From Elusimicrobia bacterium GWD2_63_28 (lineage in GTDB: Bacteria > Elusimicrobiota > Elusimicrobia > Elusimicrobiales > UBA9959), in NCBI GenBank assembly GCA_001799895.1, contig MGUI01000004.1:20961-84960 (forward strand): a stretch of 64,000 bases of DNA. Reading direction: 5' to 3'. A model generated the notes under the pieces. That model was given only the letters and a program-made list of their open reading frames with translations, did not search any database and was not told the DNA's origin. Shown here piece by piece: positions 10,740-64,000 of this stretch (position 1 is the first letter of the stretch; the number at the start of each line of letters is the position of its first letter). The translations under genes were made by a program, and so were the position numbers.

Positions 10740-10774
10740 AGGATACCGCCCCATCGCGACAGCGTTATGTCGCG
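10740..10774 (-). promoter_or_regulatory. Island operator/promoter copy 1: CGCGACA-N6-TGTCGCG + 9 nt + TATCCT
   Basis: Perfect 7+7 inverted repeat at 10755..10774. On the minus strand it is followed after 9 nt by TATCCT (10745..10740). Upstream of the 10706 -> <1 operon. Confidence 0.6.
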
Positions 10775-10827: not shown

Positions 10828-13143
10828 TTAATTTTCGGGAGACTGGCTAAAAGGCGCCAGATTTATCCTATACTTCTCCACCTTATCGTCGTCAAACGGC
10901 GGAGCGGCATCAGGATCCATTTCTTCATCATTCTCAAGGTCCAACCATTCACCTGCGCCAAGCAGGTAGCGGAACATCCTATGGCGGGCCTGTACGCGCT
11001 GGAAGATCTTACGCTCGTATGTGCCTGGAAAAGGACAGAAATATATCTCAATACCGCAGTCCTCTTTCCCAGCTTTGCCAACTCCCCCCTCCAAATATTG
11101 CGCGTAACTATTAATCCGGTCTATGCGCCCATGCCGTTGCTCGATAACAGCAGGGCTCCAATGCAAATCATAATGCAATAGTTTCCGGCAGTATTTGTGC
11201 AGGTCTATAGCTTCGGAACCCTTTTCACCTGATACCAGTATTAGTGGGTAGGAAGGCAGGTTGAATTTAAGCATGTTAACTTCGTCAAACTCTGCGGCTA
11301 TAGGCAGATGTGATTTAGCTTTAATGTCGCCAAAGGAGGACTCGTTCTGCACAAAGTCGCGAAGTATTTCTTTATTCCATGGTTCACTTAACCATTTAGC
11401 TAAGTGGTGCTTTGCATGTCTTAAATCCATGCGTCGATTCCTGTACATTTCGGCAGAACCACGGGAGTAGGCGAACAGTTTGTAGATTATATCGCGGTAT
11501 TCTTTATTGTCTATGCACATCCGGCCAATAGAATGAATTGCCGTTTTGTAGAAGTGTTGTTTATTCTTTGATATGTACGCTTGGCAACGCTTCGATATCT
11601 TTATTAGTTCACGCGCCTCATCACTGGTGTTTATCCATTTAATAAGCTTCGTTATTGTTTCTTGACGGGTGCAGAACACAACAACTTTTTCATGCTCACG
11701 CACCTGGGATAAAATCCACTTAAACACCACCTTAAATTTGGGAATCTCCCCTCCATTATTCTTTTGCTGTATTAGGCGCTGGTATTTAAGCAGGGCTGGA
11801 TTTTTTCTCATTGCGCCTTTTGCCAAAGGCGACACCTTGAACGACTTGTTTATCGCAGCCATCGATGAACACAAAGATTGTCTTCGGCTGGCCTGATGCT
11901 CCCTGCCGCCCTTGCTTATGGCAATATCAAGCATTTTCTCTAAGGCCAGCATGGGAAAGGGTTTCTTTCCCAAAGCTTCCATCTGTCTCGCATATTCCCG
12001 TGCCATAGCAGGATCTGTATATATCTCCCGCATACTCCTGCCCTGATTATGATTTTCGGCCTTGGTAGAACGCACAATAAACTTCCTGAGCAGCCCCTGT
12101 AAGTCTCGTATCTCCGAAAAGTTTTCATTGTTATTTTGAAGTGAATCTCTGTATGCGTCCAACATCGCAAATAGAGAGGCCATTTCCTTATTAAATTCAC
12201 CCGGGTGCATCGATTTAGTAAAACCCTCAAGAAGGATTTTTAATTCGCCAATAGCCAGGGAAAATGGGGTTGCCGTGACATAAAGCATTTTCTCCCATTT
12301 TTCAGCAAGAAGATGATTTGTAACCCGGCTGCTGCCTTTGGCCCGGGTTTTATGCGCCTCATCTATAATGACTAGGTCGTAAAAAGCTTTAGTTTTACCT
12401 TTTTTAATAAACTTGCTCAGTTCAAGTTGACGCAGCACTTCTCGAATGCGGATCTCCGCTCCTGAAACCCATATTTTTCCATCTTTATAAAAATTCTCAG
12501 GGCCGATTATCTTTTCAGCTTCCTGGTAGGATAAGTCTTTTATCTCGCAATGTAGGGTGGCGCTAATTTTGCGTCCAGGGAAAACGGCATTGAACAAATA
12601 CTTTTTTTCATGCTCCTTAAGCCGTAGCCCGTACCTGTGGTAGATATATCCCAAAGCTTGCCTGAGTAAAAATATTCTTGGGGCATCGTCCTGTGAATTT
12701 CGTTTTACACTACTAAATGACGCTATAGTAATCCCCTTGTTTTCGGTTAAGTCACCCGGGGTGTATGCTTCTGACATCCAGCGATTCTTTACCAATATCT
12801 TTTTTACACCTGAATCCACTATCTTGTAATCCAATAACCGGTGCCATCTCTCCTGCCATGCCTTTGCCATAGGCCGGCTACTTGCCAGTATTAACACATT
12901 CGCTTTGGGTTTATGTAGTAAAAGGGCAGCCATCACGGACAAAGCCTCAAAGGTTTTGCCCATACCAACCTCATCGGCAAGTATTACTCCGGGGGCGTTG
13001 CGTTTGTATAAACGCAACAAAAGAGCCCTTGCGGTAAGGCGCTGGCGGTTGGCCTCCCTCCTTGGCACACCAGAGTCATCCTTATGCAGGGAAAGCCAAT
13101 TAAGGGGATCCTTGCTAATTTTATTGCAGAGCTTGATGTTCAT
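10828..13143 (-). CDS. SNF2-family (SF2) helicase/translocase
   Basis: Motif I LADEVGMGKTFEA, motif II LVIIDEAHKTR, VTATPFS, motif VI HWSPAVIEQRHGRIDRI. Confidence 0.9.
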   Translation of the reverse strand: MNIKLCNKISKDPLNWLSLHKDDSGVPRREANRQRLTARALLLRLYKRNAPGVILADEVGMGKTFEALSVMAALLLHKPKANVLILASSRPMAKAWQERWHRLLDYKIVDSGVKKILVKNRWMSEAYTPGDLTENKGITIASFSSVKRNSQDDAPRIFLLRQALGYIYHRYGLRLKEHEKKYLFNAVFPGRKISATLHCEIKDLSYQEAEKIIGPENFYKDGKIWVSGAEIRIREVLRQLELSKFIKKGKTKAFYDLVIIDEAHKTRAKGSSRVTNHLLAEKWEKMLYVTATPFSLAIGELKILLEGFTKSMHPGEFNKEMASLFAMLDAYRDSLQNNNENFSEIRDLQGLLRKFIVRSTKAENHNQGRSMREIYTDPAMAREYARQMEALGKKPFPMLALEKMLDIAISKGGREHQASRRQSLCSSMAAINKSFKVSPLAKGAMRKNPALLKYQRLIQQKNNGGEIPKFKVVFKWILSQVREHEKVVVFCTRQETITKLIKWINTSDEARELIKISKRCQAYISKNKQHFYKTAIHSIGRMCIDNKEYRDIIYKLFAYSRGSAEMYRNRRMDLRHAKHHLAKWLSEPWNKEILRDFVQNESSFGDIKAKSHLPIAAEFDEVNMLKFNLPSYPLILVSGEKGSEAIDLHKYCRKLLHYDLHWSPAVIEQRHGRIDRINSYAQYLEGGVGKAGKEDCGIEIYFCPFPGTYERKIFQRVQARHRMFRYLLGAGEWLDLENDEEMDPDAAPPFDDDKVEKYRINLAPFSQSPEN

Positions 13144-13158
13144 GATGCTTATAGCCCG

Positions 13159-14976
13159 CTATACCAGCCGAGTTAATTCCCACGGCCCTCGCTTTTTAAA
13201 ATGCATTGCAAGCTTACGGCGAAGACGCCTTGTCAGAGCTAGATATGTTTTGTCTTTGACTCTGCCATTAAGCGACTGCAGGGAATTGAGGATTTCAAAG
13301 CGCGCCCAATGTCGCCAATGTTTCTCCATTCCGCTTTTAGCTTTTGAAGGAGAATGTATATAAAACGTCTTCGAGAACAACGCCAGGACATTCCGGCAGT
13401 CCAGTTCCGTCCAGGGAGCATCATCGGCAATGCGGGATTCAAGGTAGCGCAATTTGGAAGCCAGATTTCGCACTTTGCCGGCCCAGTGGAAGTGGTTTTT
13501 ATCCATATCCCCACTCCCGCCTCCGGGAACTCGTTTGCCGGGGGCACCACCTGTGCCGGGTAGCTCTTGCTCCCCATAAATAGAGCCCAACCTGGCCAAC
13601 CATTGCTCCGGATCAATTTCGCCTTCATCAGGAGTAATCGGCACACTGTCATCTTCAGGTATATCTATTGCGACCAGTTGCTGCCTGTTCCCCTTTTTTA
13701 AAGTTATATCCAGAAAACAGTCCTGCTTAATACGAAATTTACGCAGACTGGCAGGTGTTAGCTCTGCATTCTCGTATCTGATTCTGCAATTACCAAATCC
13801 GTACTTCTTCTTCCATGTAATTTGCAGGCCCCTGGCTGTAAGCCGGGCAGACTCTATGGCAGAAAGAGTCCCGGACATTTCATCATCTTTACGCTGCTGG
13901 GAAGTCAGCATTTCCTTAATATCGGCAAAAGAACGCCAACGTGGGCCATCCAATGGGGCCAAAATGCCTGGTAAATCTACATGCTGTTCTTTAACTATGA
14001 CAGCCGCTTCCACGTTATACTTCCCGCGGCCACTCATTGCCTTTGATGTGCAATTCGGCGAACCGGCTAGCAGCAATGTGGTTATTTCGCCACGGCTCAA
14101 ACCTTTAATCGCAACTAGTTTGGCATGCAGTTGACCACCACTAAGTGGCACGCCGTGGATATTGAATTGTATTGATCTTATCTTGCAGAATTTTTCCAGA
14201 TCTTCCACAAAAGAACGAGGTGCATAAAGCTCTGCAATGGCGTCATTATAGGGGATGTATAGGTGTAGCTTATCTAAATGCCGCGTAGCTGGGTGTGCTA
14301 AGAGCTCACGAAGGAAGGAATGACTTTCACTGTACGAGTCGCTGCCGTTTTGGTTCAAATCTTCAGCGTCTTCCTGTATATCGTTGAAATACTTATCATA
14401 AAACGGCGAGACTACATGTATCTCATCCGCCAGCATGTGGTTAAGTTTTTCAAAAAGCCGGTCGTCTATTGGTCGCTGGAAACTGGTGACAACGGGAGAG
14501 GATTCTGGAGTTGCGGAGAGGAAATGCTGCGGGGCTTTGATTTCTTTTAAAAGCGGCATTAATGCGAATGGGATGCCCTCGCTACTGATAACTGAAAAGA
14601 ATTCCCTGTTGTGCCGCCAACCGCTAGCGGTTAGATTACCTGAGCCTAATATCGTAAGGAACGTTTTGCGGAACGCGACTATGTAAACTTTGGGGTGAAA
14701 GAGCCGGGCTGGAGTCTCCCATTGTTTAAGCGCATAGCCCTTGTTATAGCTATGCCCAGTATAAACTCTTTTATCGCAGACGACCAAGGTGCGGAACCGA
14801 GCCCCTACCAAACCTATTTCAGTGGGGTCTTGGAAAAGAGGGATTACTTCTTTTTCGAAGAAATGGCAGTCGAAGGTATAAGTAAGAAATACCGCAGCCA
14901 GCGGGTTGCCGTGTATAGTTATGGCTTCGCTGATAACATCTTCAATGCTCTGCTCCCCTACAAAGTTGATCACCAT
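13159..14976 (-). CDS. Phospholipase-D-family (two HKD motifs) nuclease with ~200-aa C-terminal extension
   Basis: HPKVYIV...GSGNLTASG and HAKLVAI...GSPNCTSKA. The start overlaps the stop of 14970..16121 by 7 nt. Confidence 0.8.
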   Translation of the reverse strand: MVINFVGEQSIEDVISEAITIHGNPLAAVFLTYTFDCHFFEKEVIPLFQDPTEIGLVGARFRTLVVCDKRVYTGHSYNKGYALKQWETPARLFHPKVYIVAFRKTFLTILGSGNLTASGWRHNREFFSVISSEGIPFALMPLLKEIKAPQHFLSATPESSPVVTSFQRPIDDRLFEKLNHMLADEIHVVSPFYDKYFNDIQEDAEDLNQNGSDSYSESHSFLRELLAHPATRHLDKLHLYIPYNDAIAELYAPRSFVEDLEKFCKIRSIQFNIHGVPLSGGQLHAKLVAIKGLSRGEITTLLLAGSPNCTSKAMSGRGKYNVEAAVIVKEQHVDLPGILAPLDGPRWRSFADIKEMLTSQQRKDDEMSGTLSAIESARLTARGLQITWKKKYGFGNCRIRYENAELTPASLRKFRIKQDCFLDITLKKGNRQQLVAIDIPEDDSVPITPDEGEIDPEQWLARLGSIYGEQELPGTGGAPGKRVPGGGSGDMDKNHFHWAGKVRNLASKLRYLESRIADDAPWTELDCRNVLALFSKTFYIHSPSKAKSGMEKHWRHWARFEILNSLQSLNGRVKDKTYLALTRRLRRKLAMHFKKRGPWELTRLV

Positions 14977-16121
14977 TTCGGATACCTCCGGTTAATAGAT
15001 TCCCGGAGAGAACACAAGGCATCCCATCTAAACAGGTAATCTTTCGCGGTATGGGGCTTGCCATTATATTTTAGTGCGAGATTCGTGGGCTTTGGCTTCC
15101 CCTTATGCATGGTTACAAGAATGCCGTCTGGATTGCCGCGATCCCTCTGTACCTGGTTATGCAGCTCCACTAGGGCCTGTATATGCTCAGTCCCTTTAGA
15201 GAACAGCATTCTTTTCATTTTATTGGTGTAGTTTCCTAGATCGAGAAGCTGTATCCCCTTTTTAAGACACAGACTCTTTGTCGCTGCCTTTAGGTCCCTT
15301 AGTTCAATAGAATGTGACTCGTTTTTTACCAAAGCATCAAAGAGGTTGTTTGCTGCTGCAAACCATTCTGCGAAAAGAGGCGCAAATGCGGCATACTCCC
15401 GTACTTCCGCGCTTTTTGAGGTCAGCGCTATTTTACGCCACGGCGGCGCCGTTCTGTATTTCCTGGCATACTGACTGTACATTTCCTTCATTACTGGAAA
15501 GTCTTTGTTCTCAAATACTTGGTCTTTCAACCATTTCCTGTTGCCGACAATAAGATATTCTCTAAGCTTGTTGAATCTGGCACATGGATTTTTATGTATA
15601 GATGGAGACCAGTGCCATGAGATGCTCTTGAAGCGATGCAGCACATGAGGCGAGAGTTCTAGTGGGTCTTTGCTTACCAACCCGGCCCTTCTAGCTGGCT
15701 GAGAATGCGCGCCATAAAGCCCCTGAGCTGCTTGGTTTTTGATCAGCCGCTCCGTATGCAGATTGAGGCTTTCCCAGGTTATTTCCCTGTTTTGTATGCC
15801 TTCAATAATTGTTTTGGACTTCTGAACCCCTCTAAATCCGCCATTGTGCCCTTCATTTACCCAGTTAAGTTTTAGTGCGTTTTCAAAGGCCAGGAAATTA
15901 TCCTGCACTTCTTTATCAGTCGGGAATCCTTTTAATGATGCAGTTTCTCGGGCCCATTTAATTCCGTATAGAAAATACAAATAATGCTCCACGTCCGGGG
16001 TTCCGCCGGTTAATAGGGGCAGCAACTTTGCAGCAATTGCCTCATGAACCGCATCGGTTCCGATAAGGTCAGTAAACATGTCCTCTTTGGGTAATTTTGT
16101 CCAGAAGGCGCTTATATGCAT
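14970..16121 (-). CDS. Hypothetical protein (first gene of the unknown-PLD-SNF2 operon)
   Basis: 383-aa ORF, no family recognised; translationally coupled to the PLD gene; preceded by a 181-nt intergenic region. Confidence 0.55.
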   Translation of the reverse strand: MHISAFWTKLPKEDMFTDLIGTDAVHEAIAAKLLPLLTGGTPDVEHYLYFLYGIKWARETASLKGFPTDKEVQDNFLAFENALKLNWVNEGHNGGFRGVQKSKTIIEGIQNREITWESLNLHTERLIKNQAAQGLYGAHSQPARRAGLVSKDPLELSPHVLHRFKSISWHWSPSIHKNPCARFNKLREYLIVGNRKWLKDQVFENKDFPVMKEMYSQYARKYRTAPPWRKIALTSKSAEVREYAAFAPLFAEWFAAANNLFDALVKNESHSIELRDLKAATKSLCLKKGIQLLDLGNYTNKMKRMLFSKGTEHIQALVELHNQVQRDRGNPDGILVTMHKGKPKPTNLALKYNGKPHTAKDYLFRWDALCSLRESINRRYPKW

Positions 16122-16302
16122 GATTTTACCTGTTCATTTTTTAACCCATCCCACGATGCCTTTTATTGTGCAGGTTCTCTGTTTGTCATGCAATGTAGAA
16201 AAAGATTGCCCTTCTTCTCTTCGGAGATTTGCAAAGAGTATCAGGGTGGCCTTATTGAGAAGAACTCACAACTATTCTCTTGTCAGCCGGCCTAGTTAAT
16301 GG

Positions 16303-34183: not shown

Positions 34184-34256
34184 ATCTATCTATATCTATC
34201 TATTGATAATCTCTCTATCTCTCTATCTCTCTATCTCTCTCTTCTCTCTCTATTTT
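34184..34256. repeat. Low-complexity TA/CT tract, (ATCT)n then (CTCTCTAT)n
   Basis: atctatctatatctatctat ... ctctctat ctctctat ctctctat ctctctcttctctctctatttt, immediately 5' of the iterons. Confidence 0.8.
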
Positions 34257-34375
34257 CTAAGCAAGATGACACTATTTCTAAGCAAAGTAGCACTATTTCT
34301 GAGCAAAGCGACACTATTTGTGAGCAAGATGACACTATTTCTGAGCAAAACGACACATTTTCTAAGCAAAGTAAC
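34257..34375. repeat. Iteron array: 21-bp tandem direct repeat, 5 full copies + 1 partial
   Basis: Units start at 34257, 34278, 34299, 34320, 34341 and 34362. Sequences are CTAAGCAAGATGACACTATTT / CTAAGCAAAGTAGCACTATTT / CTGAGCAAAGCGACACTATTT / GTGAGCAAGATGACACTATTT / CTGAGCAAAACGACACATTTT / CTAAGCAAAGTAACG. There are no spacers, so it is not a CRISPR array. Confidence 0.85.
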
Positions 34376-34558
34376 GCCGGGCGAAAGCGACGCGCAGTTC
34401 GTCGATGTGGCTTAGCAGTTAGCCCCATGACATATTTCAGCTTTGCGCCAACTTGCTCAGAAATCCTGCAAAAAGTTCCGCACATTGCTTAAAACTTTTT
34501 AGCGCGGCGTGCGTTTAACGGTTCGCCCATCGTGGAATGGGCGAAGTATATACTCAAA

Positions 34559-49195: not shown

Positions 49196-50173
49196 CTACC
49201 TAATAGCAACCGTTTTCTTGATTCCGGAAATTTGCCCCAATCTATCCATCGGCGAGAATTTCCTGTGCTGAAGAGTCATATTGCTGTTAGCCATGTCCAC
49301 ATATACCCGGACCATATCCAAGGTAGAATGTCCCAGGATTTTCTGCAGGCTAAAAGCATCACCACCGTTCAGAACATACTGGGTGGCGAAGGTATGGCGC
49401 AGGGTGTGAGGTGAAGGTCTTACGCCCTTTATTCCAGCCTTCTCCGCGTAGAGTTGTATTTGACGCTGAATGGTACGGCGGTTGAGTCCCCCGCCAAACC
49501 GGTTCAGAAAGACAAGTTCCTGGCCTGGGATTTCACCAATCCGCATCAGGTATTGCATCAATGCTTGTTTCGCCGTAGTTCCAAAGGGAACCAGGCGTTC
49601 CTTACCTCCTTTGCCCATTACCTTGATCGTATTCTCAGACAGGTCGATATCATTTTTCTTTATCGAAAGAGCCTCTGAGATTCTCAGACCGGTATCCAAC
49701 AGCAAGACTATCAGCGTTCGTGTTCGTAATAGCGGAAAGTTGTCTTGGTCGAACTGCGCAAGAAGATCCCGCACCTGGTCCATGGAGAAGGCCTGCAGCA
49801 TTTTCTTAGTCCGCTTGGGTTTCTCAACCAACGCCATTGGATTAGCCTGGATAAAATCTTCCTTCAACAGGAACGTAAAAAAAGTCCCCAAACCAGTGTA
49901 TGCTCTGTATATTGTTCCGGAACAAAGCCCTTCAGCCTGTAAATGCTCAAAATAGGCCCTAATTTGAGTTGGGGTGATACTTCTTGCGTCTTTCACCTTT
50001 AAGCCCTCTAGGAAGGCTATAAAGGGCTTTAGCTTGTCTTTATACCACCGGATGCTACCATTAGACAGGGACTTGGCCTTACAACGTAGGATAAAGGCCT
50101 CCAGAAGGGTATTTAAGGACGTACCGGATTGGCCGGGCACAGGGTTGGATTTAACCAGCAGGGGTAGCTTCAT
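49196..50173 (-). CDS. int: Tyrosine recombinase / phage-type integrase
   Basis: N-terminal SAM-like core-binding domain. Catalytic contexts TGLRISEAL, HTLRHTFAT, LGHSTLDMVRVY. ATG 50173 has a GGAGG RBS; track start 50206 is a GTG. Confidence 0.9.
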   Translation of the reverse strand: MKLPLLVKSNPVPGQSGTSLNTLLEAFILRCKAKSLSNGSIRWYKDKLKPFIAFLEGLKVKDARSITPTQIRAYFEHLQAEGLCSGTIYRAYTGLGTFFTFLLKEDFIQANPMALVEKPKRTKKMLQAFSMDQVRDLLAQFDQDNFPLLRTRTLIVLLLDTGLRISEALSIKKNDIDLSENTIKVMGKGGKERLVPFGTTAKQALMQYLMRIGEIPGQELVFLNRFGGGLNRRTIQRQIQLYAEKAGIKGVRPSPHTLRHTFATQYVLNGGDAFSLQKILGHSTLDMVRVYVDMANSNMTLQHRKFSPMDRLGQISGIKKTVAIR

Positions 50174-50220
50174 ATTGCCTCCGTAAGGTCGTCGAACCTT
50201 GCGCACTCAGAAGGCAATAA

Positions 50221-50252
50221 AAAAGGCTTGTGGTTAGTGCCACAAGCCTTTT
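50221..50252 (-). terminator. Hairpin with flanking A/T runs downstream of the tRNA
   Basis: aaaaGGCTTGTGG-ttagtg-CCACAAGCCtttt: a 9-bp stem with T-runs on both strands, 20 nt after the tRNA 3' end. Confidence 0.6.
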
Positions 50253-50272
50253 CTCGTCGAGAGACTGAAAAC

Positions 50273-50349
<77 letters not shown>

Positions 50350-50354
50350 CATGT

Positions 50355-50383
50355 ATTATAGCACAAGGTTCAAGCAGTTGCAA
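50355..50383 (-). promoter_or_regulatory. Sigma70-type promoter of the tRNA gene
   Basis: On the minus strand: TTGCAA (50383..50378), a 17-nt spacer, TATAAT (50360..50355), then 5 nt to the tRNA 5' end. Confidence 0.7.
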
Positions 50384-50728
50384 CATTTCTCGTCGGAGAA
50401 ACCTGCATTCCCAAGACGGTTATCTCTACTGATCACATGCAAAAGTGATCGATCCAAGGCAGTGATCGGATTTGAGATCGGTTTGGCTGAAAACCAGAGA
50501 TGTGATCCCCAATGATGTCTACTGATTAAATACTCCGCCGTCAGTTGGGATGGATTACAGGGGAAGGTCAGAGAGCCTTCCGGATGAGGTGACCTGGTGA
50601 AGCCGCGCTACCTCGTATTGGTGCTGGACGAGGCGCGCGCCGCGGCGGGGCGCTTCCCGCTGGCGGCGGCCTGCTGCTGGTGAAAACGAAAAGATAAGAG
50701 CTGAATTCCCCGTGGAAAGGCAAAAAGA

Positions 50729-50754
50729 GGGGCCGGCTGAAAACAGCCGGCCCC
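50729..50754 (-). terminator. Rho-independent terminator of 50796..51167
   Basis: GGGGCCGGCTG-aaaa-CAGCCGGCCCC, followed on the minus strand by TCTTTTT. Confidence 0.75.
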
Positions 50755-50795
50755 TTGGATTTTGCCAGGTTTTACTTACCGCCCCGGCTGCCTGG

Positions 50796-51167
50796 TCACT
50801 TCTTCGCGGGCGCCTTGGCCGCGCTCTCTTTAAAAGAGTCCACCTTTATGGCCGCCAGCGGGTACTTGGGCGGGTGGGCGGGCAGCAGGGCCCCTTTCAC
50901 GGTGACAGTCTTGCCTCCGAGGGTCTCCAGCTTTTTAAAGTTCTTCTTATCAGCGCCGGGAAGAAGCTTTATGGTCTCCTCGCCTACCTTCAGGAGTACC
51001 GTGTTATACTTCTCCTTCTTCGCTTCGTCAGCCTTTATGACTTCTATGGTCCCGGTCTTCTCTTCACTCTTCTTCCTCGCTTTCTCTATAGTTTCCCCGG
51101 CCATGGCCGCGCCGGCCCCGAGCAGAAAGCTGAAGGCTATGGCGCCGGCGAGTAGTTTACCTTTCAT
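50796..51167 (-). CDS. Small secreted Lys-rich protein
   Basis: Signal peptide MKGKLLAGAIAFSFLLGAGAAMA. ATG 51167 has a GGAGGA RBS; track start is 51203. Confidence 0.55.
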   Translation of the reverse strand: MKGKLLAGAIAFSFLLGAGAAMAGETIEKARKKSEEKTGTIEVIKADEAKKEKYNTVLLKVGEETIKLLPGADKKNFKKLETLGGKTVTVKGALLPAHPPKYPLAAIKVDSFKESAAKAPAKK

Positions 51168-51251
51168 TAATTTTTCCTCCGTTCTCTGAATAAAGTTTTC
51201 CAACCCGACGAGGATATCATACCAAAAAGCCGCCGGGGCAGGGCGGGCGGG

Positions 51252-52304
51252 CTATTTAGCGGGGTCGTCCCCGCCGCCGCGCAGGCGGCGTTTGGTCTCG
51301 CCTATGTCGCGCACCATCCGGCCGAAGCTGCGCAGCCGGCGCTTGGCCTCCAGGCGTTTCTTGAGGTCCGTGCGCTGGGCCTGCCGCTCGGTCTCGCGGC
51401 GCAGCTTGTAATAGTTTTCCAGGCGCTCTTCGGTCAGCGCGCCGGAGGCCACGGCCGCCGCCACCGCGCAGCCCGGCTCGCCGGTATGCGAGCAGTTCGT
51501 GAAGCGGCAGCCGGCCGCCAGCTCGCTGACATCGGGGAAGGAGTTCTGCAGCCCTTCGCCGGAGTAGGCCACGCCGAACTCCCTGATGCCGGGGGTGTCT
51601 ATCACCTGCCCGCCGCAGGGCAGCTGGTAGAGCTGCCGCCCGGTGGTGGTATGCCTGCCGCGGGCGTCGTCTTCCCGGACCGGCCCGGTCAGCGCCGCCT
51701 CGCGCCCGGCCAGGCGGTTGAGCAGCGTGCTCTTGCCCGCGCCGGAAGAACCGACAAAACAGCAGCGGATCCCGCCGGCCAGTTCGGCCTCCACCTCCGG
51801 CACGCCTTCGCCCGAAATTGAGGACAGGCAGAGCACCCGCGCGCCCGGCGCTGCCAGCGTAACGGCGGCCAGCCTGTCGGCCAGCTCCGCCTCCGGGCAC
51901 AGGTCCTTCTTGGTCAGCGCCACCACGGGCAGCGCGCCGCTGTCCCAGGCGGCCACCAGCATGCGCTCCAGGCGGGGGATGTTGTAATTCCCGTCGAGGC
52001 CCATCACCAGGAAAACCTTGTCGATATTGGCGGCCAGCGGCTGCGCGTCGCCGTCTTTGCCCAGCCCCTTGCGCAGCAGCAGGGTGCGGCGCGCCGCCAC
52101 GCCGTGCACCACGGCCTTGGCGCCGCCGTCGTGCAGGGACACGCTGACCTCGTCCCCCACCACGGGATAGTCCAGCCGGGAGGCGGCCTCACCGCCCAGC
52201 TTGCCGGCTATCACGGCCGGCAGGTCCCTGCCGTCGAGGAGCACCGTGTAGCCCCCTCTCTGTTCCGCCGTTACCAGCGCGGTAAATGTTTCTTGTTCAG
52301 GCAT
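51252..52304 (-). CDS. rsgA: Ribosome small-subunit-dependent GTPase A
   Basis: Circularly permuted GTPase: TKKDL, GSSGAGKSTLLNRL, GRHTTT, DTPG. Zn knuckle CRFTNCSHTGEPGCAV. Confidence 0.9.
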   Translation of the reverse strand: MPEQETFTALVTAEQRGGYTVLLDGRDLPAVIAGKLGGEAASRLDYPVVGDEVSVSLHDGGAKAVVHGVAARRTLLLRKGLGKDGDAQPLAANIDKVFLVMGLDGNYNIPRLERMLVAAWDSGALPVVALTKKDLCPEAELADRLAAVTLAAPGARVLCLSSISGEGVPEVEAELAGGIRCCFVGSSGAGKSTLLNRLAGREAALTGPVREDDARGRHTTTGRQLYQLPCGGQVIDTPGIREFGVAYSGEGLQNSFPDVSELAAGCRFTNCSHTGEPGCAVAAAVASGALTEERLENYYKLRRETERQAQRTDLKKRLEAKRRLRSFGRMVRDIGETKRRLRGGGDDPAK

Positions 52305-52354
52305 AATAACCCGGCCGCCCGGAAAAACCGGAGCCCGGCCGGAATCGGGATAAT

Positions 52355-53530
52355 TTATTTATCGAGTTCGAAAGTGTCCGCCACGTCGCCGGCCTTGTCG
52401 TAGACGGTCATCTTCAGCGACTTCTCTTTTACGTCGAAGACGGCGAAATGGTACACCGGCAGGAACTTGGCGGACCAGTCCTCGTTGCGGCGCTGAATGT
52501 ATAGGGGCGAACCGCCCCCGCCGAGGGTAATGTAAGTTATCCCCCCGGCCTGATCGGGAAGACCGTCCTTTACCGGCAGGGTGCGCTCGTAGTTGTGGTC
52601 GTGGCCCTGCAGCACCAGGTCCACCTTGTATTTTTGCAGCAGCGGTTCCAGCGCCTTCACCTCTTCCTCCAGCGTGCCGTGCGCGCCCGTGGAATAGAGC
52701 GGCTCGTGCAGCACCACGAACTTCCAGGTCTTGTCGGCGGACTTGGAGAGGAAATGCTGCAGCCACTTGTACTGCTTGGACTCGGGGGTCAGCGCCGGCG
52801 CGAATCTGGCGCCGAAGAAGGCGTTGGTATCCAGCACAAAGAAGCGCGCGTGCGCCACGTCGAAGAAATAATAATGCGGCGGCAGCCCGGTCAGCGGGGT
52901 GCTGTGGTAGGGCGTGTAGTTGGCCTTCAGGAAGCCCTTGCCGGCGGCGGTCTTGAGGTCCCGGCCGTAGTCGTGGTTGCCCAGCGTCAGGAAGAAGGGC
53001 GTCCGGGCCAGCAGGGGCGCGTAAGGCCTGAAATATTCCTCGTCGGCCATTTCCTCCAGGCCTTCGGAGAGCATGTCGCCGGTATGCATCACGAAGTCCG
53101 GCCGGAATTTCTCCATCTGCAGGGCCAGCTGGTTCTGCTCGTCGCTGGCGGAGCCGGAGTCGCCGAAGGCCAGGAAAGAGAACCAGGGCTTGTCCTCGGT
53201 GCGGAAGGTGGTGAAGGTGCCCTCGTGCGCCTTGTAGACGGCGGTGCTCTCGTAGGCGGTCAGGTAGAGGCGGTAGCAGTGCGTCGTATCGGGCAGCAGC
53301 CCGAACAGCGGCACGCGGTTTTCCTTCACGGCCGCCAGCGGCGCCAGGAAGCGCTCGCAGTCCGGCGCCATGCCGTAGGAGATCCACGCCGGGGAAGCGG
53401 CGTCCACCCTGAAGCGGACCGTCACCATGTCCTTGGACATGTTCTCCAGGTAGGGGCCGCGGTCCAGCCGCGCCGCCCGCGCGGGAGCGCAGGCCAGCAG
53501 GGCGAGGGCGGCCGCCAGGATTATCTTCAT
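52355..53530 (-). CDS. Secreted metallophosphoesterase (purple-acid-phosphatase-like)
   Basis: Signal peptide MKIILAAALALLACAPARA; GDSG, GDM, GNHD, LHEPLYS, GHDHNYER. The start overlaps the ade stop (ATGA at 53527..53530). The track ORF extension to 54598 is GC shadow. Confidence 0.8.
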   Translation of the reverse strand: MKIILAAALALLACAPARAARLDRGPYLENMSKDMVTVRFRVDAASPAWISYGMAPDCERFLAPLAAVKENRVPLFGLLPDTTHCYRLYLTAYESTAVYKAHEGTFTTFRTEDKPWFSFLAFGDSGSASDEQNQLALQMEKFRPDFVMHTGDMLSEGLEEMADEEYFRPYAPLLARTPFFLTLGNHDYGRDLKTAAGKGFLKANYTPYHSTPLTGLPPHYYFFDVAHARFFVLDTNAFFGARFAPALTPESKQYKWLQHFLSKSADKTWKFVVLHEPLYSTGAHGTLEEEVKALEPLLQKYKVDLVLQGHDHNYERTLPVKDGLPDQAGGITYITLGGGGSPLYIQRRNEDWSAKFLPVYHFAVFDVKEKSLKMTVYDKAGDVADTFELDK

Positions 53531-55269
53531 TTCCCCCCGGGGCCGCAGAAGAGCGGCGTCACCTTGAATTTCACGGCGTCGATGACGCCGCGGTCGGTGA
53601 TGCGGAGTTCCGGTATCGGAGGCAGCGTCAGAAAGGCCATGGCCATGAAGGGGTCGGAGAGTTTGGAGCCCAGCATCCTGGCCGCCGCGGCCAGCCGCGC
53701 CAGCTTCTCGCGGACGAACTCGGAGCTGCGGTCCGACATCAGGCCGGCCACCGGCAGCGGCAGGGCTTCCAGCACCTGGCCGTTGAGGGCCGCCACTATG
53801 CCGCCCTGCATTTTGACCACCTGCACCGCTGCGGCGTACATGTCCCCGTCGTGCGTGCCGATGACCACGATGTTGTGCGAATCGTGCGAGACCGAGGAGG
53901 CGATGGCGCCTTTCTTGAGGCCGAAGCCCTTCACCAGGCCGCGGGCGATGCGGCCGCTGGCCATGTGGCGCTCTATCACGGCGATCTTCAGGATGTCGCG
54001 GTCGGTGTCGGAAGAGACGTACCCGCCGTCCTGCTTGACCTTTTCCACGCTCATCTTGGTGACGATCTGGTCCGGGATGACGTTGATGACCTTGGCGTAC
54101 TTGCCCTCGGCCTTCAGCGCGAAATCCTCGTGCTCTATCCACTTCACGTTGACCGTGCCGCGGACCTTGCCCTCGTATTCCTTTATCACGCCGGGGGTGA
54201 TCTTCCTGTCGGAAGCCACCAGCTTGCCCTGCTTGAAGACCTTGGAGATCTTCATTCCCTTGAGGTCCTGCAGGATCACCAGGTCCGCCTGGTAGCCGGG
54301 GGCGATGGCGCCCAGGTTCTTGAGGCCGAAATACTCGGCGGTATTGATGGTGGCCATCTGGATGGCGCGGATGGGGTCCACGCCCAGCTTGATGGCGGTG
54401 CGCACCAGGTAGTCTATGTGCCCCTGCTTCTCGATATCCTCCAGGTGGCGGTCGTCGGTGACGAGGATGAACTTGCGGGAATTTTCGGAATTCACCAGCG
54501 GCAGCAGGCCCTTGAGGTTCTTGGCGGCCGTGCCCTCGCGGATCATGATGTACATGCCGGCGCGCAGCTTCTCGCGGGCCTCGGCCACGTCGGTGCACTC
54601 GTGGTCGCTCTTGATGCCCGCCGAGACGTAGGCATAAAGCTGCTTGTCCTTGAGCATCGGCGCGTGGCCGTCTATCACCTTGTTCTTGGCAATGGCGATC
54701 TTCTCCAGCACGCCCTTGTCGCCATAGATCACGCCGGGGTAGTTCATCATCTCGGCGAGGCCCAGCACGCGCTCGTCGCCCAGCAGCAGCGACAGGTCGT
54801 GGGCGTCCAGGTCGGCGCCGGCGGTCTCCAGGGCGGTGGACGGCACGCAGGAGGGCAGCATCACGTAGACGCCCAGCACGGCGTTAAGGCTGGAGGAAAG
54901 CATGTACTTGATGCCGTCGAGGCCTAGCACGTTGGCGATCTCGTGCGGGTCGATGACCACGGAGGTGGTGCCGCAGGGCAGCACGGTGCGGGCGAACTCG
55001 GGGATCTTCACCATCGAGCTCTCGATATGCACGTGGCCGTCGATGAAGCCGGGGGCCAGGTAGGCGCCCTTGAGGTCCATGGTAGCCTTGGCCTTGTAGT
55101 CGCCGAAGCCCACGATCTTGCCGCCGTGTATGGCCACGTGGGTGCGGTGGATGTCTCCGGAGAAAGTGTTGATCACCCGGGCGTTCCTGAGCAGCAGGTC
55201 CACCCGCTTGCCGCCGCCGGAGATCTCTATGGTGCTCCTGAGTTTTTCGAGGTTTGAATCTTTTTCCAT
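53527..55269 (-). CDS. ade: Adenine deaminase
   Basis: Amidohydrolase motif GFIDGHVHIESSM and SDHEC; 580 aa, typical Ade length and layout. Confidence 0.85.
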   Translation of the reverse strand: MEKDSNLEKLRSTIEISGGGKRVDLLLRNARVINTFSGDIHRTHVAIHGGKIVGFGDYKAKATMDLKGAYLAPGFIDGHVHIESSMVKIPEFARTVLPCGTTSVVIDPHEIANVLGLDGIKYMLSSSLNAVLGVYVMLPSCVPSTALETAGADLDAHDLSLLLGDERVLGLAEMMNYPGVIYGDKGVLEKIAIAKNKVIDGHAPMLKDKQLYAYVSAGIKSDHECTDVAEAREKLRAGMYIMIREGTAAKNLKGLLPLVNSENSRKFILVTDDRHLEDIEKQGHIDYLVRTAIKLGVDPIRAIQMATINTAEYFGLKNLGAIAPGYQADLVILQDLKGMKISKVFKQGKLVASDRKITPGVIKEYEGKVRGTVNVKWIEHEDFALKAEGKYAKVINVIPDQIVTKMSVEKVKQDGGYVSSDTDRDILKIAVIERHMASGRIARGLVKGFGLKKGAIASSVSHDSHNIVVIGTHDGDMYAAAVQVVKMQGGIVAALNGQVLEALPLPVAGLMSDRSSEFVREKLARLAAAARMLGSKLSDPFMAMAFLTLPPIPELRITDRGVIDAVKFKVTPLFCGPGGK

Positions 55270-55572
55270 ATAGCCACCGCCCTTAAATATAATTTATTAG
55301 CCTGAAAGTTGCAGGTGCAACTTTCCGCCCGCATAGAGGGCGCCCTTCGGGAGGCATACACCTCGTCGGGCCTGGCGCGCATAGCGCTGGGCCCTCCGCC
55401 CGCTGCGCGGGGAATCCTGCAGGATTCAGGTTAATTTTACATATTAGCGGGCCGCCCCGCAAAACAAAAAAACACGCCCGGGGCGCGAACATATATAGAA
55501 AGCTTTCCTTAGCGCGGCGGCATTTTTGTATTATAGGCTTTGCGGCGGGCGCCTTAGCGCCAGCCAGGCTTT

Positions 55573-58500
55573 ATGAATTTAAAATTGAACTCAAAGATCA
55601 CGGCGGCGGCGGCCGGGCTTATCCTGCTGGTCATGGCCGGCCTGGGCGGCCTGCTTTATCAGAATCTGGACCAGTGGCGCAAAACCGAGAGGCAGATACG
55701 GCATACCAGGGACTCTATCCGCATTTATGAAGAGCTGTACTCCCAGGTGCTCGCGGCCGAGTCGGCGGTCCGTGCCTACGTTATAACCGCGAGCCCCTCC
55801 GCGCTGCCCGCTTACGCTAAAGCCTCCGCCGCCGTTCAAAGAGAACTGCTCTTCCTGAAGCGCATGGAAAAAGAGCATTCCGCGCAGGTACCCGCCCTTC
55901 AGGCTCTTGAAGAGCTTCTCAAGCAGCGCAAAACTATCCTGGACGAGTCGGTACTGCTCAGGAGGACACAGGGGTTTGAAGCCGTCCGCGTTTTTGCCAG
56001 CAAGGGAACCGGCACCCGCCTCTCGGCGGAGATCGACAAGGTGATAAGGGAGGCGCAGGCAACCGAGCGGCGGGACCTCTCAGGCCGGCAGGAGGAGTCC
56101 AGGGCGGCCTCGGCGCAGCGCAGCCTGCTGCTGACGGCTATCTTCATCATCATTTTCCTCGTAGTGCTGGCCGCGCTGGGAGTGGTGCTGCAGGCTGCGC
56201 GCAGGCGCCGCCTGGCGGAAGAGGAACTGGCTGACGCCCACGAAAGGCTCAGAAGCGTGCTGGACGCCGCCGACCAGGTGGGCATTATAGCTACCGACCT
56301 GAAAGGCGTAATTACTCTTTTCAACAAGGGCGCCGAGAAGATGCTGGGCTACCGCGCCGAAGAAGTGGTCAACCTGAAAACTCCAGCGCTCCTCCACCTT
56401 TCGCCGGAAGTGGAGGCCAGGGGCAAAGAACTCACCGAAAAGCTGGGCCGGCCCGTGCAGGGCTTCGACGTCTTCGTGGAAACCGCCAGGCAGGGCGGCT
56501 TCGACAGGCGGGAGTGGACCTATGTCAGCAAGGACGGCAGGCCTTTCCCCGTGGAGCTCGTCGTGACCGCGATAAAGGACCATAACGGCCTCCTCACCGG
56601 CTTCGTGGGCCTGGCCACCGACATCAGCTCGCGCAAGGCCTCCCAACTGCAGATGCGCAAGCTCTCCGCCGCCATTAAAGCCAGCCCCACCTCCATCGTC
56701 ATCACCGACAAAGAAGGCCGGATAGAATACGCCAACCCCAAGTTTTTAGAGCTGACCGGCTATACCGAGGCGGAGCTGCTGGGCCAGAACCCGAAGGTGA
56801 TAGCCTCCGGCAAAACGCCCGTGAGCGTGTATAAAGAGCTCTGGGACACCCTGCTGGCCGGCCGCGAATGGCAGGGCGAGCTGCTCAACCGCAAGAAGAG
56901 CGGAGAACTTTTCTGGGAGCACGCCTCCATCTCGCCGGTCAAGGACCCGCAGGGGAATATCACCAACTTCGTGGCGGTCAAGCTGGACATTACCGACCGC
57001 CGGCTGGCCCAGAAGGAAACCGAGAAGGCCCGCGACGCCGCCGTGCAGCTGGCCCGGATGAAGTCCGAATTCCTGGCCAATATGAGCCACGAGATCCGCA
57101 CGCCGATGAACGCCATCATAGGCATGACCGGCCTGCTGATGGATACCCCGCTGACCGGGCAGCAGCGCGACTATGTCAGGACGGTGAACGGGGCGGGCGA
57201 GGCGCTGCTCGACATCATCAACGACATCCTGGATTTCTCCAAGATAGAGTCGGGCAAGCTGCTCATCGAGAAAATGGACTTTAACCTGCGCGAAACCGTG
57301 GAAGGCACGGGAGACCTGCTGGCCTCCCGCGCGCAGGCCAAAGAGATAGAGCTGGCCTATTTCATAGAGGCCGGCGTCCCCCCCGCCCTGCGGGGCGACC
57401 AGGGCCGGCTGCGGCAGGTGCTGTTGAACCTGATGGGCAACGCCGTGAAGTTCACCGAGAAGGGAGAGGTGGTGCTGAGGGTTTCGACCGTCCGCGAGGA
57501 CGCCGGCTCCGCCGTGCTGAAGTTCGCCGTGAAGGATACCGGCATAGGCATTTCCCCGGAGGCGCAGAAAAACCTTTTCGAAGTATTCATGCAGGCCGAC
57601 GCCTCCACCACGCGCAAATACGGCGGCACAGGCCTGGGCCTCTCCATCTCCAGGAAGCTGGTGGAACTGATGGGCGGAACCATAGGCCTGGAGAGCGAGC
57701 CGGGCAGTGGGTCCACCTTCTGGTTCACCCTGCCGTTCGACAAGGCGGCCGCCGGCGCCGCCCCGGAACTGCCCGCGGCGGACGTGACCGGCGTGCGGGC
57801 CCTGATAGTGGACGACAACGCCGCCAACAGGGAGATAGTAAGCCGCTACCTGGAGGCCTGGGGCATGCGCTACGAGACCGCGGACTCGGGCCGGGCCGCG
57901 CTGGAGATCCTCAGGCGGGAAGCGGCCGGCAGCGACCCTTTCAGGCTGATGGTCCTGGACATGCAGATGCCCGGGATGGACGGGCTGATGCTGGCGGCGG
58001 AGATGAAGAAGAACCCCGCCTTGGCGGGTATCCGCAAAGTCATGATGACTTCGCTGGGCCATGAATTGCCGCAGCGCGAGCTCGACGAGACCGGCATCTC
58101 GGCCTGCCTGGGCAAGCCGGTGCGGCCGCTTGCCCTGCTGAAGAAGATCTCCATGGCGCTGGCCGGCGCCGAGGCCGAGCCGGCCGCCGAGCCGCAGGCC
58201 GCGGCTGTAGACCGGCCGCTCAATAAATATTTCCGGGTGCTGGTGGCCGAGGACAATACGGTCAACCAGAAGGTGGCGCTCAAGCAGCTGGAAAAACTGG
58301 GCTACGAGGCCGACGTGGTGGCCAACGGCCTGGAAGTGCTGGAGGCGCTGAAGCGCCGCCCCTACGACCTGGTGCTGATGGACTGCCAGATGCCGGAGAT
58401 GGACGGCTTCCAGGCCACGGAGGCGATCCGGAAAGAAGAGGCCGGGCAGCGGCATCTTCCGGTGGTGGCCATGACGGCCAACGCCATGCAGGGCGACCGC

Positions 58501-58944
58501 GAGAAATGCATAGCCGCCGGCATGGACGGCTACATCCCCAAGCCGGTGCGGCTGGAGAAGCTGGCCGAGGCGCTGGCCAAATGGGACACACCGCTGGACG
58601 CCGCCGTAGTCGGAGAACTCCGCGCCCTCGCCGGACCGGAAAGCCCCGGGTTTTTCGCCGACCTGGCGAAGGCCTTCCTGGCGGACCTGCCGGGCCGGCT
58701 GGCAGCCATACGGGCAGCCGTCCTTTCCGGTGACGGGGAGGCCCTGCGCCAGGCCGCCCACGCCCTGAAGGGCAGCTCCGGCAATATGGGAGCCAAGCGC
58801 CTGCAGAAGCTCTGCCTGCAGCTGGAGAACTCCGGGAGGTCCGGCTCCATGGGCGGAGCCCCGGAACTGCTGGGCGCCCTTGAGACTGAAACTCCGCTGA
58901 CCCGCGCCGCGCTGGAAGCCGAGGCCTCCGGGGCCGGGCGCTAG
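55573..58944 (+). CDS. Hybrid sensor histidine kinase (CHASE3-like, 2x PAS, HisKA, HATPase_c, 2x REC, HPt)
   Basis: N-terminal TM + CHASE3-like helix bundle, H-box [19 protein letters not shown], two receiver domains ([20 protein letters not shown]), HPt [12 protein letters not shown]. Confidence 0.9.
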
Positions 58945-58945
58945 C

Positions 58946-60491: not shown

Positions 60492-60531
60492 TGTTCTCCC
60501 CCTTGCCCGCTCAAATTATAACAGACGGCGC

Positions 60532-61840: not shown

Positions 61841-61932
61841 GCGTCAAAAAAATCGTATCTTATATGCCGCGCGCCGGTCAAACCAATAAAAAGCCCGGGA
61901 GATCCCGGGCTTTTCAAGGCGCGCTCGCCCGC

Positions 61933-63216: not shown

Positions 63217-63361
63217 TGCTGAAAGCCTCCGCCGCGGTATTGACTATAATCAATCTATACTAATTATAGGACCCAAAGGGCAAATTCCGCAAGACCAAAA
63301 GACCCACGCACGCATAGGCCCTAGGGCCTATGACGAATGTCAATAGAACTGACGGATCTAA

Positions 63362-63979: not shown

Positions 63980-64000
63980 TTGCTAAATGTCCACTGCGCG

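What the first reader, a model, noticed from the sequence alone, without database searches (positions are those of the whole stretch)
10828..16121. Three-gene operon: unknown 383-aa protein, double-HKD PLD nuclease, SNF2 helicase
The genes are tightly coupled, with a 7-nt overlap and a 15-nt gap. The operon has its own 181-nt upstream region and ends just before operator copy 1.

SNF2 plus PLD recalls DrmD and DrmC of DISARM. However, no DrmA, DrmB (DUF1998) or methyltransferase is present anywhere in the window. The first gene has no motif I can recognise. The PLD protein also carries an unusual ~200-aa C-terminal extension.

Two readings are possible. It may be a minimal helicase-nuclease defence system. 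Alternatively it may be a second phosphorothioate-dependent effector that uses the neighbouring Ssp modification as its self mark.
Basis: inference. Interest (0 to 1): 0.65.

Follow-up and report, generated by a model that had tools for sequence, protein, structure and literature searches.

The report
Compact Azaca-like PLD–SNF2 defence trio
Three tightly coupled genes (a helical protein of unknown fold, a DNA-cutting PLD enzyme and an SNF2 motor) form a rare, compact and unnamed branch of the Azaca/PDC-M27 type of anti-phage cassette, and it sits beside the Ssp phosphorothioation genes here without travelling with them elsewhere.

Summary
Three minus-strand genes are packed with a 7-nt overlap and a 15-nt gap: A (383 aa), B (605 aa, double-HKD PLD) and C (771 aa, SNF2). 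All catalytic motifs are intact.

The trio is not a DISARM fragment, and nothing ties it to Ssp.
- In 12 distinct related loci, A-B-C is collinear and no SspA-D homologue lies within about 10 kb.
- In 201 genomes of the host's order, the other SspC carriers lack the trio, and the one other carrier of a trio-like B gene lacks SspC.

The trio belongs to a superfamily of "A + PLD + SNF2" cassettes. That superfamily includes PADLOC's untested candidate PDC-M27 and, more remotely, Azaca (ZacABC). In Azaca all three proteins are needed to cut DNA.
- A matches the long-form and PDC-M27-like A proteins with hhalign 99.6%, E 4e-24.
- A's link to ZacA is only moderate.
- No Pfam, NCBIfam or PADLOC model recognises A.
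- A's confident AlphaFold model (pLDDT 89) has no neighbour in PDB or BFVD.

The PLD C-terminal extension is a conserved family feature, not an oddity.

Verdict: a new compact variant of a known kind of helicase-nuclease defence system. It is a neighbour of Ssp in a tRNA-Met island, not its effector. Its function has not been tested.

The parts
14970..16121 (-). Gene A: a 383-aa, mostly alpha-helical protein of unknown fold. It is the obligate partner of the PLD protein. Conserved blocks are FWT.P...DPLG.D...LVP.LTGRT, FERALK..W, NQR.QGLLG.Y, LH..V..RG..W and D.RW.
   Evidence: - ORF; no Pfam, NCBIfam or PADLOC hit.
- 44 cluster representatives among 1.84 billion proteins; alignment A1.
- AF2 model with pLDDT 89.4 and pTM 0.87; no PDB or BFVD neighbour.
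- hhalign 99.6% to long-form and PDC-M27-like A proteins.
- Moderate signal to ZacA.
13159..14976 (-). Gene B: a 605-aa single-chain double-HKD PLD-superfamily nuclease (H94/K96/N114 and H284/K286/N308). Its conserved C-terminal region comprises a small beta domain (374-436), a Gly-rich disordered linker (441-499) and a four-helix bundle (497-604).
   Evidence: - PLDc_2 4.5e-10; ZacB 3.6e-13 and PDC-M27B 3.2e-7.
- Family alignments A2 and A6.
- AF2 model with pLDDT 67.7.
- Foldseek hits to Tdp1 at 9e-9, SauUSI at 1e-5 and NgoAVII-R at 1e-3.
- hhalign to ZacB at 96.6%, over the second HKD motif only.
10828..13143 (-). Gene C: a 771-aa SNF2-family SF2 ATPase/translocase with intact motifs I (GMGKT, 60), II (DEAH, 261), III (TATP, 290) and VI (QRHGRIDR, 669).
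   Evidence: - Pfam SNF2-rel_dom, ResIII and Helicase_C.
- PDC-M27C 3.5e-30, ZacC 2.6e-24 and DrmD 1.3e-21.
- Motif positions.
- The tree places it in the short-form clade.
16122..16302 (-). The 181-nt region upstream of gene A is the presumed promoter region of the trio. It carries no copy of the island's WYL-type operator box.
   Evidence: - Sequence.
- No box there.
- The simple scan found no sigma-70-like promoter and no terminator here, so read-through from the kinase gene cannot be excluded.

Best explanation
The trio is a self-contained three-subunit helicase-nuclease anti-phage cassette. It is a compact, unnamed branch of the superfamily that holds PDC-M27 and, remotely, Azaca (ZacABC). 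It lies in a tRNA-Met-linked defence island next to, but functionally independent of, the Ssp phosphorothioation genes.

Inferred mechanism, by analogy with Azaca:
- A, B and C form one complex.
- The SNF2 subunit C uses ATP to load on or translocate along invading DNA.
- This licenses the two-HKD PLD subunit B to cut DNA through a phospho-histidine intermediate.
- The helical subunit A is an obligatory structural or specificity partner of B.
- Self/non-self discrimination probably rests on a feature of the invader's DNA (a modification or a structure), not on a host mark. No modification gene is conserved beside the trio.

Shown here: gene structure, intact catalytic motifs, conservation of the trio, lack of linkage to ssp, and homology to PDC-M27-like and long-form cassettes.

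Inferred: defence function, complex formation, division of labour, and target.
For: 1. Tight coupling with intact PLD and SNF2 motifs.
2. A-B-C is collinear with matching sizes in all 7 distinct loci of the closest helicase subfamily and in L014. It is also collinear in 3 long-form and 2 Bacteroidota loci.
3. The neighbours differ from locus to locus and are often defence genes: McrBC, R-M, GmrSD, SIR2, WYL, NERD/UvrD.
4. PADLOC's best hits for B and C are ZacB/PDC-M27B and PDC-M27C/ZacC, ahead of DrmC/DrmD.
5. The A-family profile matches long-form and PDC-M27-like A proteins over their full length (hhalign 99.6%, E 3.7e-24). The Bacteroidota trios hit PDC-M27A/B/C at 1.5e-7, 9.5e-25 and 7.5e-63.
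6. Genuine Azaca operons have the same order and coupling. A merged A HMM scores two of four ZacA proteins at 30.6 and 16.3 bits, against 7.6 for the best of 1000 shuffles, in collinear segments.
7. In Azaca all three proteins and the ZacC Walker A motif are needed for DNA cleavage (bioRxiv 10.1101/2025.07.10.664194).
8. The B core folds like DNA-acting two-HKD enzymes, including the ATP-dependent restriction enzyme SauUSI.
9. A-B pairing persists even in very distant helicase-less branches.
Against: - No experiment exists for this branch or for PDC-M27, which is one of 145 untested candidates.
- The link to the only tested relative, Azaca, is remote. A versus ZacA reaches only 15-57% hhalign probability. 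B versus ZacB aligns over 60 columns only. ZacC is the most distant clade in the helicase tree.
- No PADLOC, Pfam or NCBIfam model would call this system.
- All genes from sspB to the trio lie on one strand, and no terminator or promoter was detected in the 181-nt gap. Co-transcription with the Ssp-linked modules in this genome is therefore not excluded.
- There are no RNA data.
Confidence: 0.7

Rival explanations
1. The trio is a second phosphorothioate-dependent restriction effector. It reads the SspABCD mark as 'self' and attacks unmodified DNA.
For: - It lies 7 kb downstream of sspBCD on the same strand, after two other Ssp-associated modules.
- No terminator was detected between the kinase gene and gene A.
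- Dnd/Ssp neighbourhoods are known to recruit HKD+SF2 nucleases such as PbeA (PMC10853773).
Against: - None of 12 distinct related trio loci has an SspA-D homologue within about 10 kb, and their Pfam lists show no PAPS_reduct or DUF4007.
- In 201 genomes of the host's order, the two other SspC carriers lack the trio, and the one other carrier of a trio-like B gene lacks SspC.
- The trio proteins hit no SspE or Dnd restriction model. PbeA matches only through the PLD motif, at 4e-4.
- The PT-systems survey I read describes no such partner.
Confidence: 0.08
2. The trio is a degenerate or minimal DISARM: DrmC and DrmD are left over after loss of DrmA, DrmB and the methyltransferase.
For: C hits DrmD models (1.3e-21) and B hits DrmC (3.4e-4) in PADLOC.
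Against: - The NCBIfam DrmD equivalog scores 89 bits against a cut-off of 610.
- PDC-M27C and ZacC score higher than DrmD.
- No DUF1998/MZB domain occurs in the whole genome, with a positive control.
- The same three genes, without DrmA, DrmB or a methyltransferase, recur in every related locus. This is therefore the native architecture, not a remnant.
- Gene A has no DISARM counterpart.
Confidence: 0.02
3. The trio is not an immune system. It would instead be a DNA-repair or mobile-element maintenance module: a Tdp1-like PLD phosphodiesterase that removes DNA adducts, assisted by an SNF2 remodeller. It could also act against competing plasmids or islands.
For: - The best structural neighbours of the B core are Tdp1 structures, at 9e-9.
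- Two loci (L003, L026) sit among housekeeping genes.
- WYL regulators, often damage-responsive, stand directly upstream in L010 and L025.
Against: - The distribution is patchy and rare, with only 44 A-cluster representatives.
- The trio lies in a low-GC island beside a tRNA gene.
- Its neighbours are frequently defence genes.
- It is related to Azaca, which gives >1,000,000-fold protection against T4.
- The Tdp1 similarity is the generic two-HKD fold (TM about 0.35-0.46).
Confidence: 0.1

Closest known systems
Azaca (ZacA-ZacB-ZacC). The discovery paper is cited from my own knowledge as Millman et al. 2022. Biochemistry is in bioRxiv 10.1101/2025.07.10.664194.
   Same: - The three-gene order is the same: unknown helical protein, then two-HKD PLD nuclease, then SF2/SNF2-type ATPase, with overlapping genes.
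- B and C hit ZacB and ZacC.
- The PLD proteins are similarly long.
- No modification gene is present.
   Different: - All three proteins are shorter: 383/605/771 aa against about 412-434/612-634/1045-1089 aa.
- A is not recognised by the ZacA model or by any Pfam model, DUF6361 included. It shows only moderate remote similarity, mainly in the N-terminal D(P/E)LG...LxPG.T block.
- B aligns with ZacB only around HKD2.
- ZacC is the most distant clade in the helicase tree.
- Activity has not been tested.
PDC-M27 (PADLOC-DB v2 'phage defence candidate', untested; bioRxiv 10.1101/2024.01.29.577857)
   Same: - The A/B/C architecture is the same.
- PDC-M27C is the best PADLOC hit of C, at 3.5e-30.
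- The A family is full-length homologous to the A proteins of PDC-M27-like Bacteroidota trios.
   Different: - The window's A does not hit PDC-M27A.
- B hits PDC-M27B only at 3.2e-7, over one HKD motif.
- C is about 400 aa shorter.
- The clades are separate in the helicase tree.
DISARM DrmC (PLD) + DrmD (SNF2)
   Same: It combines a PLD nuclease with an SNF2 ATPase in a defence context.
   Different: - There is no DrmA, DrmB (DUF1998) or methyltransferase.
- DrmD and DrmC scores lie far below the family cut-offs.
- There is an extra obligatory gene A.
- The PLD has two HKD motifs in one chain and is much longer than DrmC.
SauUSI and other PLD-helicase fusions (PbeA; NCBIfam 'phospholipase D-like anti-phage protein')
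   Same: An ATP-dependent SF2 motor is coupled to a PLD nuclease acting on DNA. SauUSI appears among the fold hits of B, at 1e-5.
   Different: - Here the nuclease and the motor are separate polypeptides, with a third subunit.
- Sequence similarity is limited to the motifs.

Membership tests
Azaca (ZacABC) | Three-gene operon in the order ZacA - ZacB (PLD) - ZacC (SF2 helicase), tightly coupled | tested here: met
   The window has a 7-nt overlap and a 15-nt gap. Genuine Azaca operons from Actinomycetota show the same order with overlaps.
Azaca (ZacABC) | The first gene is a ZacA / DUF6361 protein | tested here: inconclusive
   - No Pfam or PADLOC hit for P0001 or any of 32 family members.
- A ZacA profile finds nothing in the genome at E<=1.
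- hhalign gives 15% for A1 and 57% for the merged profile, over the N-terminal 80 residues.
- The merged HMM scores two of four ZacA proteins at 30.6 and 16.3 bits, against 7.6 for the best of 1000 shuffles.
Azaca (ZacABC) | The PLD and helicase subunits match the ZacB and ZacC models over most of their length | tested here: not met
   - ZacB hits at 3.6e-13 but covers only model positions 227-389 of 586.
- ZacC hits at 2.6e-24 with short best stretches.
- hhalign of B against ZacB covers 60 columns.
- ZacC forms a separate, most distant clade.
Azaca (ZacABC) | Anti-phage activity, with DNA cleavage that requires all three proteins and the helicase Walker A motif | not testable with these tools
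   This is known for BmAzaca only.
PDC-M27 (PADLOC candidate) | Hits to the PDC-M27A, B and C models | tested here: not met
   - Window hits: A none, B 3.2e-7 (one motif), C 3.5e-30 (partial).
- Only 1 of 32 A-family members touches PDC-M27A, at 0.0046.
- Homology at superfamily level is nevertheless clear.
DISARM | Core genes DrmA and DrmB (DUF1998/MZB), plus DrmC with DrmD or DrmE, and a methyltransferase | tested here: not met
   - No MZB/DUF1998 domain in the genome, with a control positive in 8 of 14 genomes.
- The DrmD equivalog scores 89 bits against a cut-off of 610.
- There is no methyltransferase among the neighbours.
Ssp/Dnd-dependent restriction modules (SspE, SspFGH, DndFGH, PbeABCD) | Recurrent genomic linkage with ssp/dnd modification genes | tested here: not met
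   - None of 12 distinct related loci has SspA-D homologues nearby.
- There is no co-occurrence in 201 genomes of the host's order.
Ssp/Dnd-dependent restriction modules (SspE, SspFGH, DndFGH, PbeABCD) | Sequence homology of the proteins to known PT-dependent effectors | tested here: not met
   PADLOC gives no SspE or Dnd restriction hit. PbeA hits B at 4e-4 through the HKD motif only.

The most novel reading that the evidence does not exclude
In this island an Azaca-like helicase-nuclease complex has been recruited as a third effector arm of Ssp. It would be co-transcribed with the upstream Ssp-linked modules, and its unknown-fold subunit A would read the phosphorothioate mark, or its absence. 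That would be a new way of sensing PT by a new fold.
Probability: 0.06. Interest if true: 0.7.

Novelty: new variant of a known kind. Interest (0 to 1): 0.35.

Why it matters
- Current defence-annotation models (PADLOC, NCBIfam, Pfam) miss a whole compact branch of the Azaca/PDC-M27 superfamily. Its first subunit is a confidently modelled fold with no structural neighbour.
- At about 5.3 kb, this small version could be a convenient minimal system for learning what the enigmatic ZacA-like subunit does. In Azaca that subunit is required for cleavage, and its role is unknown.
- For this genome, the result corrects the tempting idea that every nuclease beside ssp genes is a phosphorothioate-dependent effector.
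- The gain is incremental, because similar Azaca-like trios have already turned up repeatedly in this scan.

Tried and rejected
- **Word-indexed homologue search for A:** found only the window's own protein. The exhaustive HMMER search was needed.
- **The search for related loci with the A alignment:** failed, because no stretch was conserved enough. With the B alignment a single peptide pattern was used and gave only 11 loci, so the genome survey is shallow.
- **Sequence search of solved structures:** nothing for A or B, and only RapA motif hits for C.
- **Foldseek of the A model:** no match in PDB or BFVD with E<0.2.
- **A versus SspB (DUF4007):** no relation.
- **Operator box:** I rejected the idea that the island's WYL box controls the trio, since no copy lies upstream.
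- **Promoter and terminator scan:** nothing useful in either intergenic region.
- **Sequencing runs:** no RNA runs. DNA contigs from other samples cover the whole island at low depth, so they say nothing about linkage.
- **Literature:** nothing found on PDC-M27 itself. No ZacA sequence could be taken from the Azaca preprint, so genuine Azaca operons were fetched from Actinomycetota genomes instead.
- **Not possible here:** a model-to-model structural comparison of A with ZacA.
Full report
**Observation.** A and B overlap by 7 nt (ATGGTGA), with a GGAGG 9 nt before B's ATG. B and C are 15 nt apart. A 181-nt gap separates A from the kinase gene upstream. The 'operator' is a palindromic box, CGCGACAnnnnnnTGTCGCG, at 10755-10774, 53 nt beyond C's stop. 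Five more copies lie at 38-46.5 kb and none lies in front of the trio.

B carries two HxK...GSxN motifs (H94/K96/N114 and H284/K286/N308). C carries all the SF2/SNF2 motifs: GMGKT at 60, DEAH at 261, TATP at 290 and QRHGRIDR at 669. A has no hit in Pfam, NCBIfam or PADLOC.

**Surroundings.** Upstream on the same strand lie sspB, sspC and sspD, with a divergent sspA. All have very strong PADLOC scores. They are followed by an SF2 helicase / GHKL ATPase / PLD set and a DUF262 / Ser-Thr kinase pair. An earlier follow-up in this scan judged both of those to be Ssp-associated modules. Downstream, behind the operator box, starts an operon with TPR proteins and Eleos-like dynamins. The whole left 50 kb of the window has 46.9% G+C against 63.5% in the right flank, and a tRNA-Met gene at 50273-50349 marks the border. 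The trio therefore lies in a large horizontally acquired defence island of a groundwater metagenome-assembled genome.

**Is the trio a unit, and does it go with Ssp?** A is rare but real. An exhaustive HMMER search of 1.84 billion cluster representatives gave 44 relatives, mostly 355-390 aa long. B has only a handful of relatives by word search. C has a closest subfamily of about 30 proteins of around 700 aa, at about 30% identity over their full length.

I fetched seven distinct contigs for that helicase subfamily (L007, L008, L010, L011, L025, L026, L027). Every one has the same collinear, overlapping trio: A 355-384 aa, B 583-603 aa, C 696-719 aa. So does a Methylomirabilota MAG contig, L014, which breaks off inside B. 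A 'long form' (A about 440, B about 710, C about 975 aa; L001-L005) and a Bacteroidota form (A about 415, B about 665, C about 1175 aa; L015, L020) keep the same order.

HMMs built from the A and B families, and phmmer with C, find all three genes side by side in each of these loci. phmmer with the window's SspA-D finds nothing in any of them. The neighbours vary: McrBC, type II and III R-M, GmrSD, SIR2, NERD/UvrD, WYL regulators, and in two cases plain housekeeping genes.

In 201 genomes of the host's order, a B homologue occurs only in the window's genome and, in distant form, in G314. SspC occurs in the window's genome, G310 and G323, so apart from the window's own genome the two sets do not overlap. 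The trio is thus an autonomous cassette, and its adjacency to ssp here is not a conserved association. Low-depth contigs from mine-drainage and rock metagenomes cover the whole island and add nothing on this point.

**Relationship to known systems.**
- *PADLOC hits.* B ranks ZacB (3.6e-13) and PDC-M27B (3.2e-7) first. C ranks PDC-M27C (3.5e-30) and ZacC (2.6e-24) ahead of DrmD (1.3e-21).
- *Azaca.* It is the tested system ZacA (DUF6361) - ZacB (PLD) - ZacC (SF2 helicase). According to bioRxiv 10.1101/2025.07.10.664194, all three proteins and the ZacC Walker A motif are needed for cleavage. The complex prefers glucosyl-hmC T4 DNA and protects more than a million-fold against T4.
- *PDC-M27.* It is one of 145 untested 'phage defence candidates' found by guilt-by-embedding.
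- *A versus PDC-M27-like A.* Profile-profile comparison shows the window's A family to be full-length homologous to the long-form and Bacteroidota A proteins (99.6%, E 3.7e-24, 353 columns). The Bacteroidota trios match PDC-M27A/B/C at 1.5e-7, 9.5e-25 and 7.5e-63.
- *A versus genuine ZacA.* I retrieved true Azaca operons from Actinomycetota genomes (ZacA E 1e-135 to 1e-74). Against them the A family gives only 15% hhalign probability, or 57% with a merged profile, over the N-terminal D(P/E)LG...LxPG.T block. A merged HMM nevertheless scores two of four ZacA proteins at 30.6 and 16.3 bits in collinear segments, against 7.6 bits for the best of 1000 shuffles.
- *B and C versus ZacB and ZacC.* B aligns to ZacB at 96.6%, but only around the second HKD motif. 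In a helicase tree the window's C lies inside the short-form clade (sister to L011, support 96/97). The long-form, PDC-M27-like and ZacC clades are separate, and ZacC is the most distant.
- *Deepest core.* In still more distant branches (Natrinema L017, Hymenobacter L021) an A-like gene directly precedes a longer PLD gene without a helicase. The A-B pair is therefore the deepest conserved core.
- *DISARM.* Membership fails. The DrmD equivalog scores 89 bits against a cut-off of 610, and no DUF1998/MZB domain exists in the genome.
- *PT literature.* The survey of PT-associated nucleases that I read (PMC10853773) describes HKD+SF2 fusions (PbeA) but no such trio.

**Structures.**
- *Protein A.* With the 32-sequence alignment, AlphaFold2 gives a confident model (pLDDT 89.4, pTM 0.87). 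It is almost all helical, with a small beta hairpin near the C-terminus. Foldseek finds nothing similar in the PDB (best E 1.2, TM below 0.2) or in BFVD (best E 0.2).
- *Protein B.* The model is of moderate quality (pLDDT 67.7). The two-lobed PLD core (about 1-345) is well modelled. It is followed by a small beta domain (374-436), a disordered Gly-rich linker (441-499) and a four-helix bundle (497-604).
- *Fold hits for B.* The core matches Tdp1 (9e-9), PPK1, the ATP-dependent restriction enzyme SauUSI (1e-5) and NgoAVII-R (1e-3). The extension matches nothing.
- *The extension.* It is conserved across the family, with invariant W388, F496, H541, W554 and W557 in the short-form alignment. ZacB and PDC-M27B are of comparable length. 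It is a family trait, plausibly the docking surface for A or C (inference).

**Mechanism (inferred).** By analogy with Azaca, A, B and C would form one complex. C's ATPase would drive loading or translocation on foreign DNA and license B to cut through a phospho-histidine intermediate. A would be an obligatory partner of B that contributes stability or target specificity. No modification gene is conserved beside the trio, so discrimination probably relies on a property of the invader's DNA and not on a host mark. None of this has been tested for this branch.

**Rivals.**
- The PT-dependent effector reading keeps a small probability. All genes from sspB to the trio share a strand, and the simple scan found neither a terminator nor a promoter in the 181-nt gap. 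The comparative evidence is against it.
- A repair or maintenance role (Tdp1-like fold, WYL regulators upstream in L010 and L025, two housekeeping contexts) is possible. It fits the patchy, island-borne distribution less well.
- A DISARM remnant is excluded for practical purposes.

**Novelty and score.** This is a new, compact variant of a known kind of system (Azaca/PDC-M27-like A + PLD + SNF2 cassettes) that today's models do not capture. Earlier notes of this scan list dozens of Azaca-like trios in other genomes, mostly the long form. I did not treat those notes as evidence, but they lower the surprise. Interest is 0.35: a useful annotation gap and a handy minimal model for the unknown ZacA-like subunit, but not a new principle.

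**Limits.**
- The genome-wide survey rested on one peptide pattern and on 12 distinct loci.
- The A-ZacA link is not settled.
- No expression data exist.
- No model-to-model structural comparison could be run.

Noticed in passing
window 50273-50349 (and 1-50272 vs 50350-64000): A tRNA-Met gene marks a sharp composition break. Positions 1-50000 have 46.9% G+C and 50001-64000 have 63.5%. The whole left 50 kb (Eleos, the trio, Ssp and its partner modules, the WYL regulon) looks like one tRNA-linked genomic island that runs off the left edge of the window.
   Followed up: partly
L010 6051-7088 and L025 6106-7125: A WYL-domain regulator stands directly upstream of the short-form trio, on the same strand, in 2 of 7 related loci. 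In the window, the island's WYL-type box has six copies, but none lies in front of the trio. The nearest (10755-10774) lies just behind it.
   Followed up: partly
L010 4668-6047 and L011 6499-7977: A DUF2779 protein is a neighbour of the short-form trio in two unrelated contigs, upstream of the WYL gene in L010 and directly after the helicase in L011. It may be a recurrent accessory gene.
   Followed up: no
L017 8251-12115 (Natrinema) and L021 8229-12628 (Hymenobacter): Very distant relatives keep only the pair: an A-like protein (about 567 aa) followed by a longer PLD protein (740-913 aa), with no SNF2 gene behind. The A-B pair therefore seems to be the ancestral core, also in an archaeon.
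   Followed up: partly
window 34254-34392: A tandem array of a 21-nt unit (TTTCTAAGCAAGATGACACTA-like, 5-6 copies, 69-82% alike) was found by the repeat search. Its meaning was not examined.
   Followed up: no
window 13142: One low-depth contig of a mine-drainage metagenome (run X5) lacks 3 nt at the start codon region of helicase gene C. This is a strain variant that may shift or remove the annotated start.
   Followed up: no
G314:C27:16065-18379 (L013, L045, L046): One genome of the same order carries a distant A-like gene (412 aa; ZacA model at 6.8e-5, merged A HMM at 1.5e-12) followed by a PLD gene. It has no SspC.
   Followed up: partly
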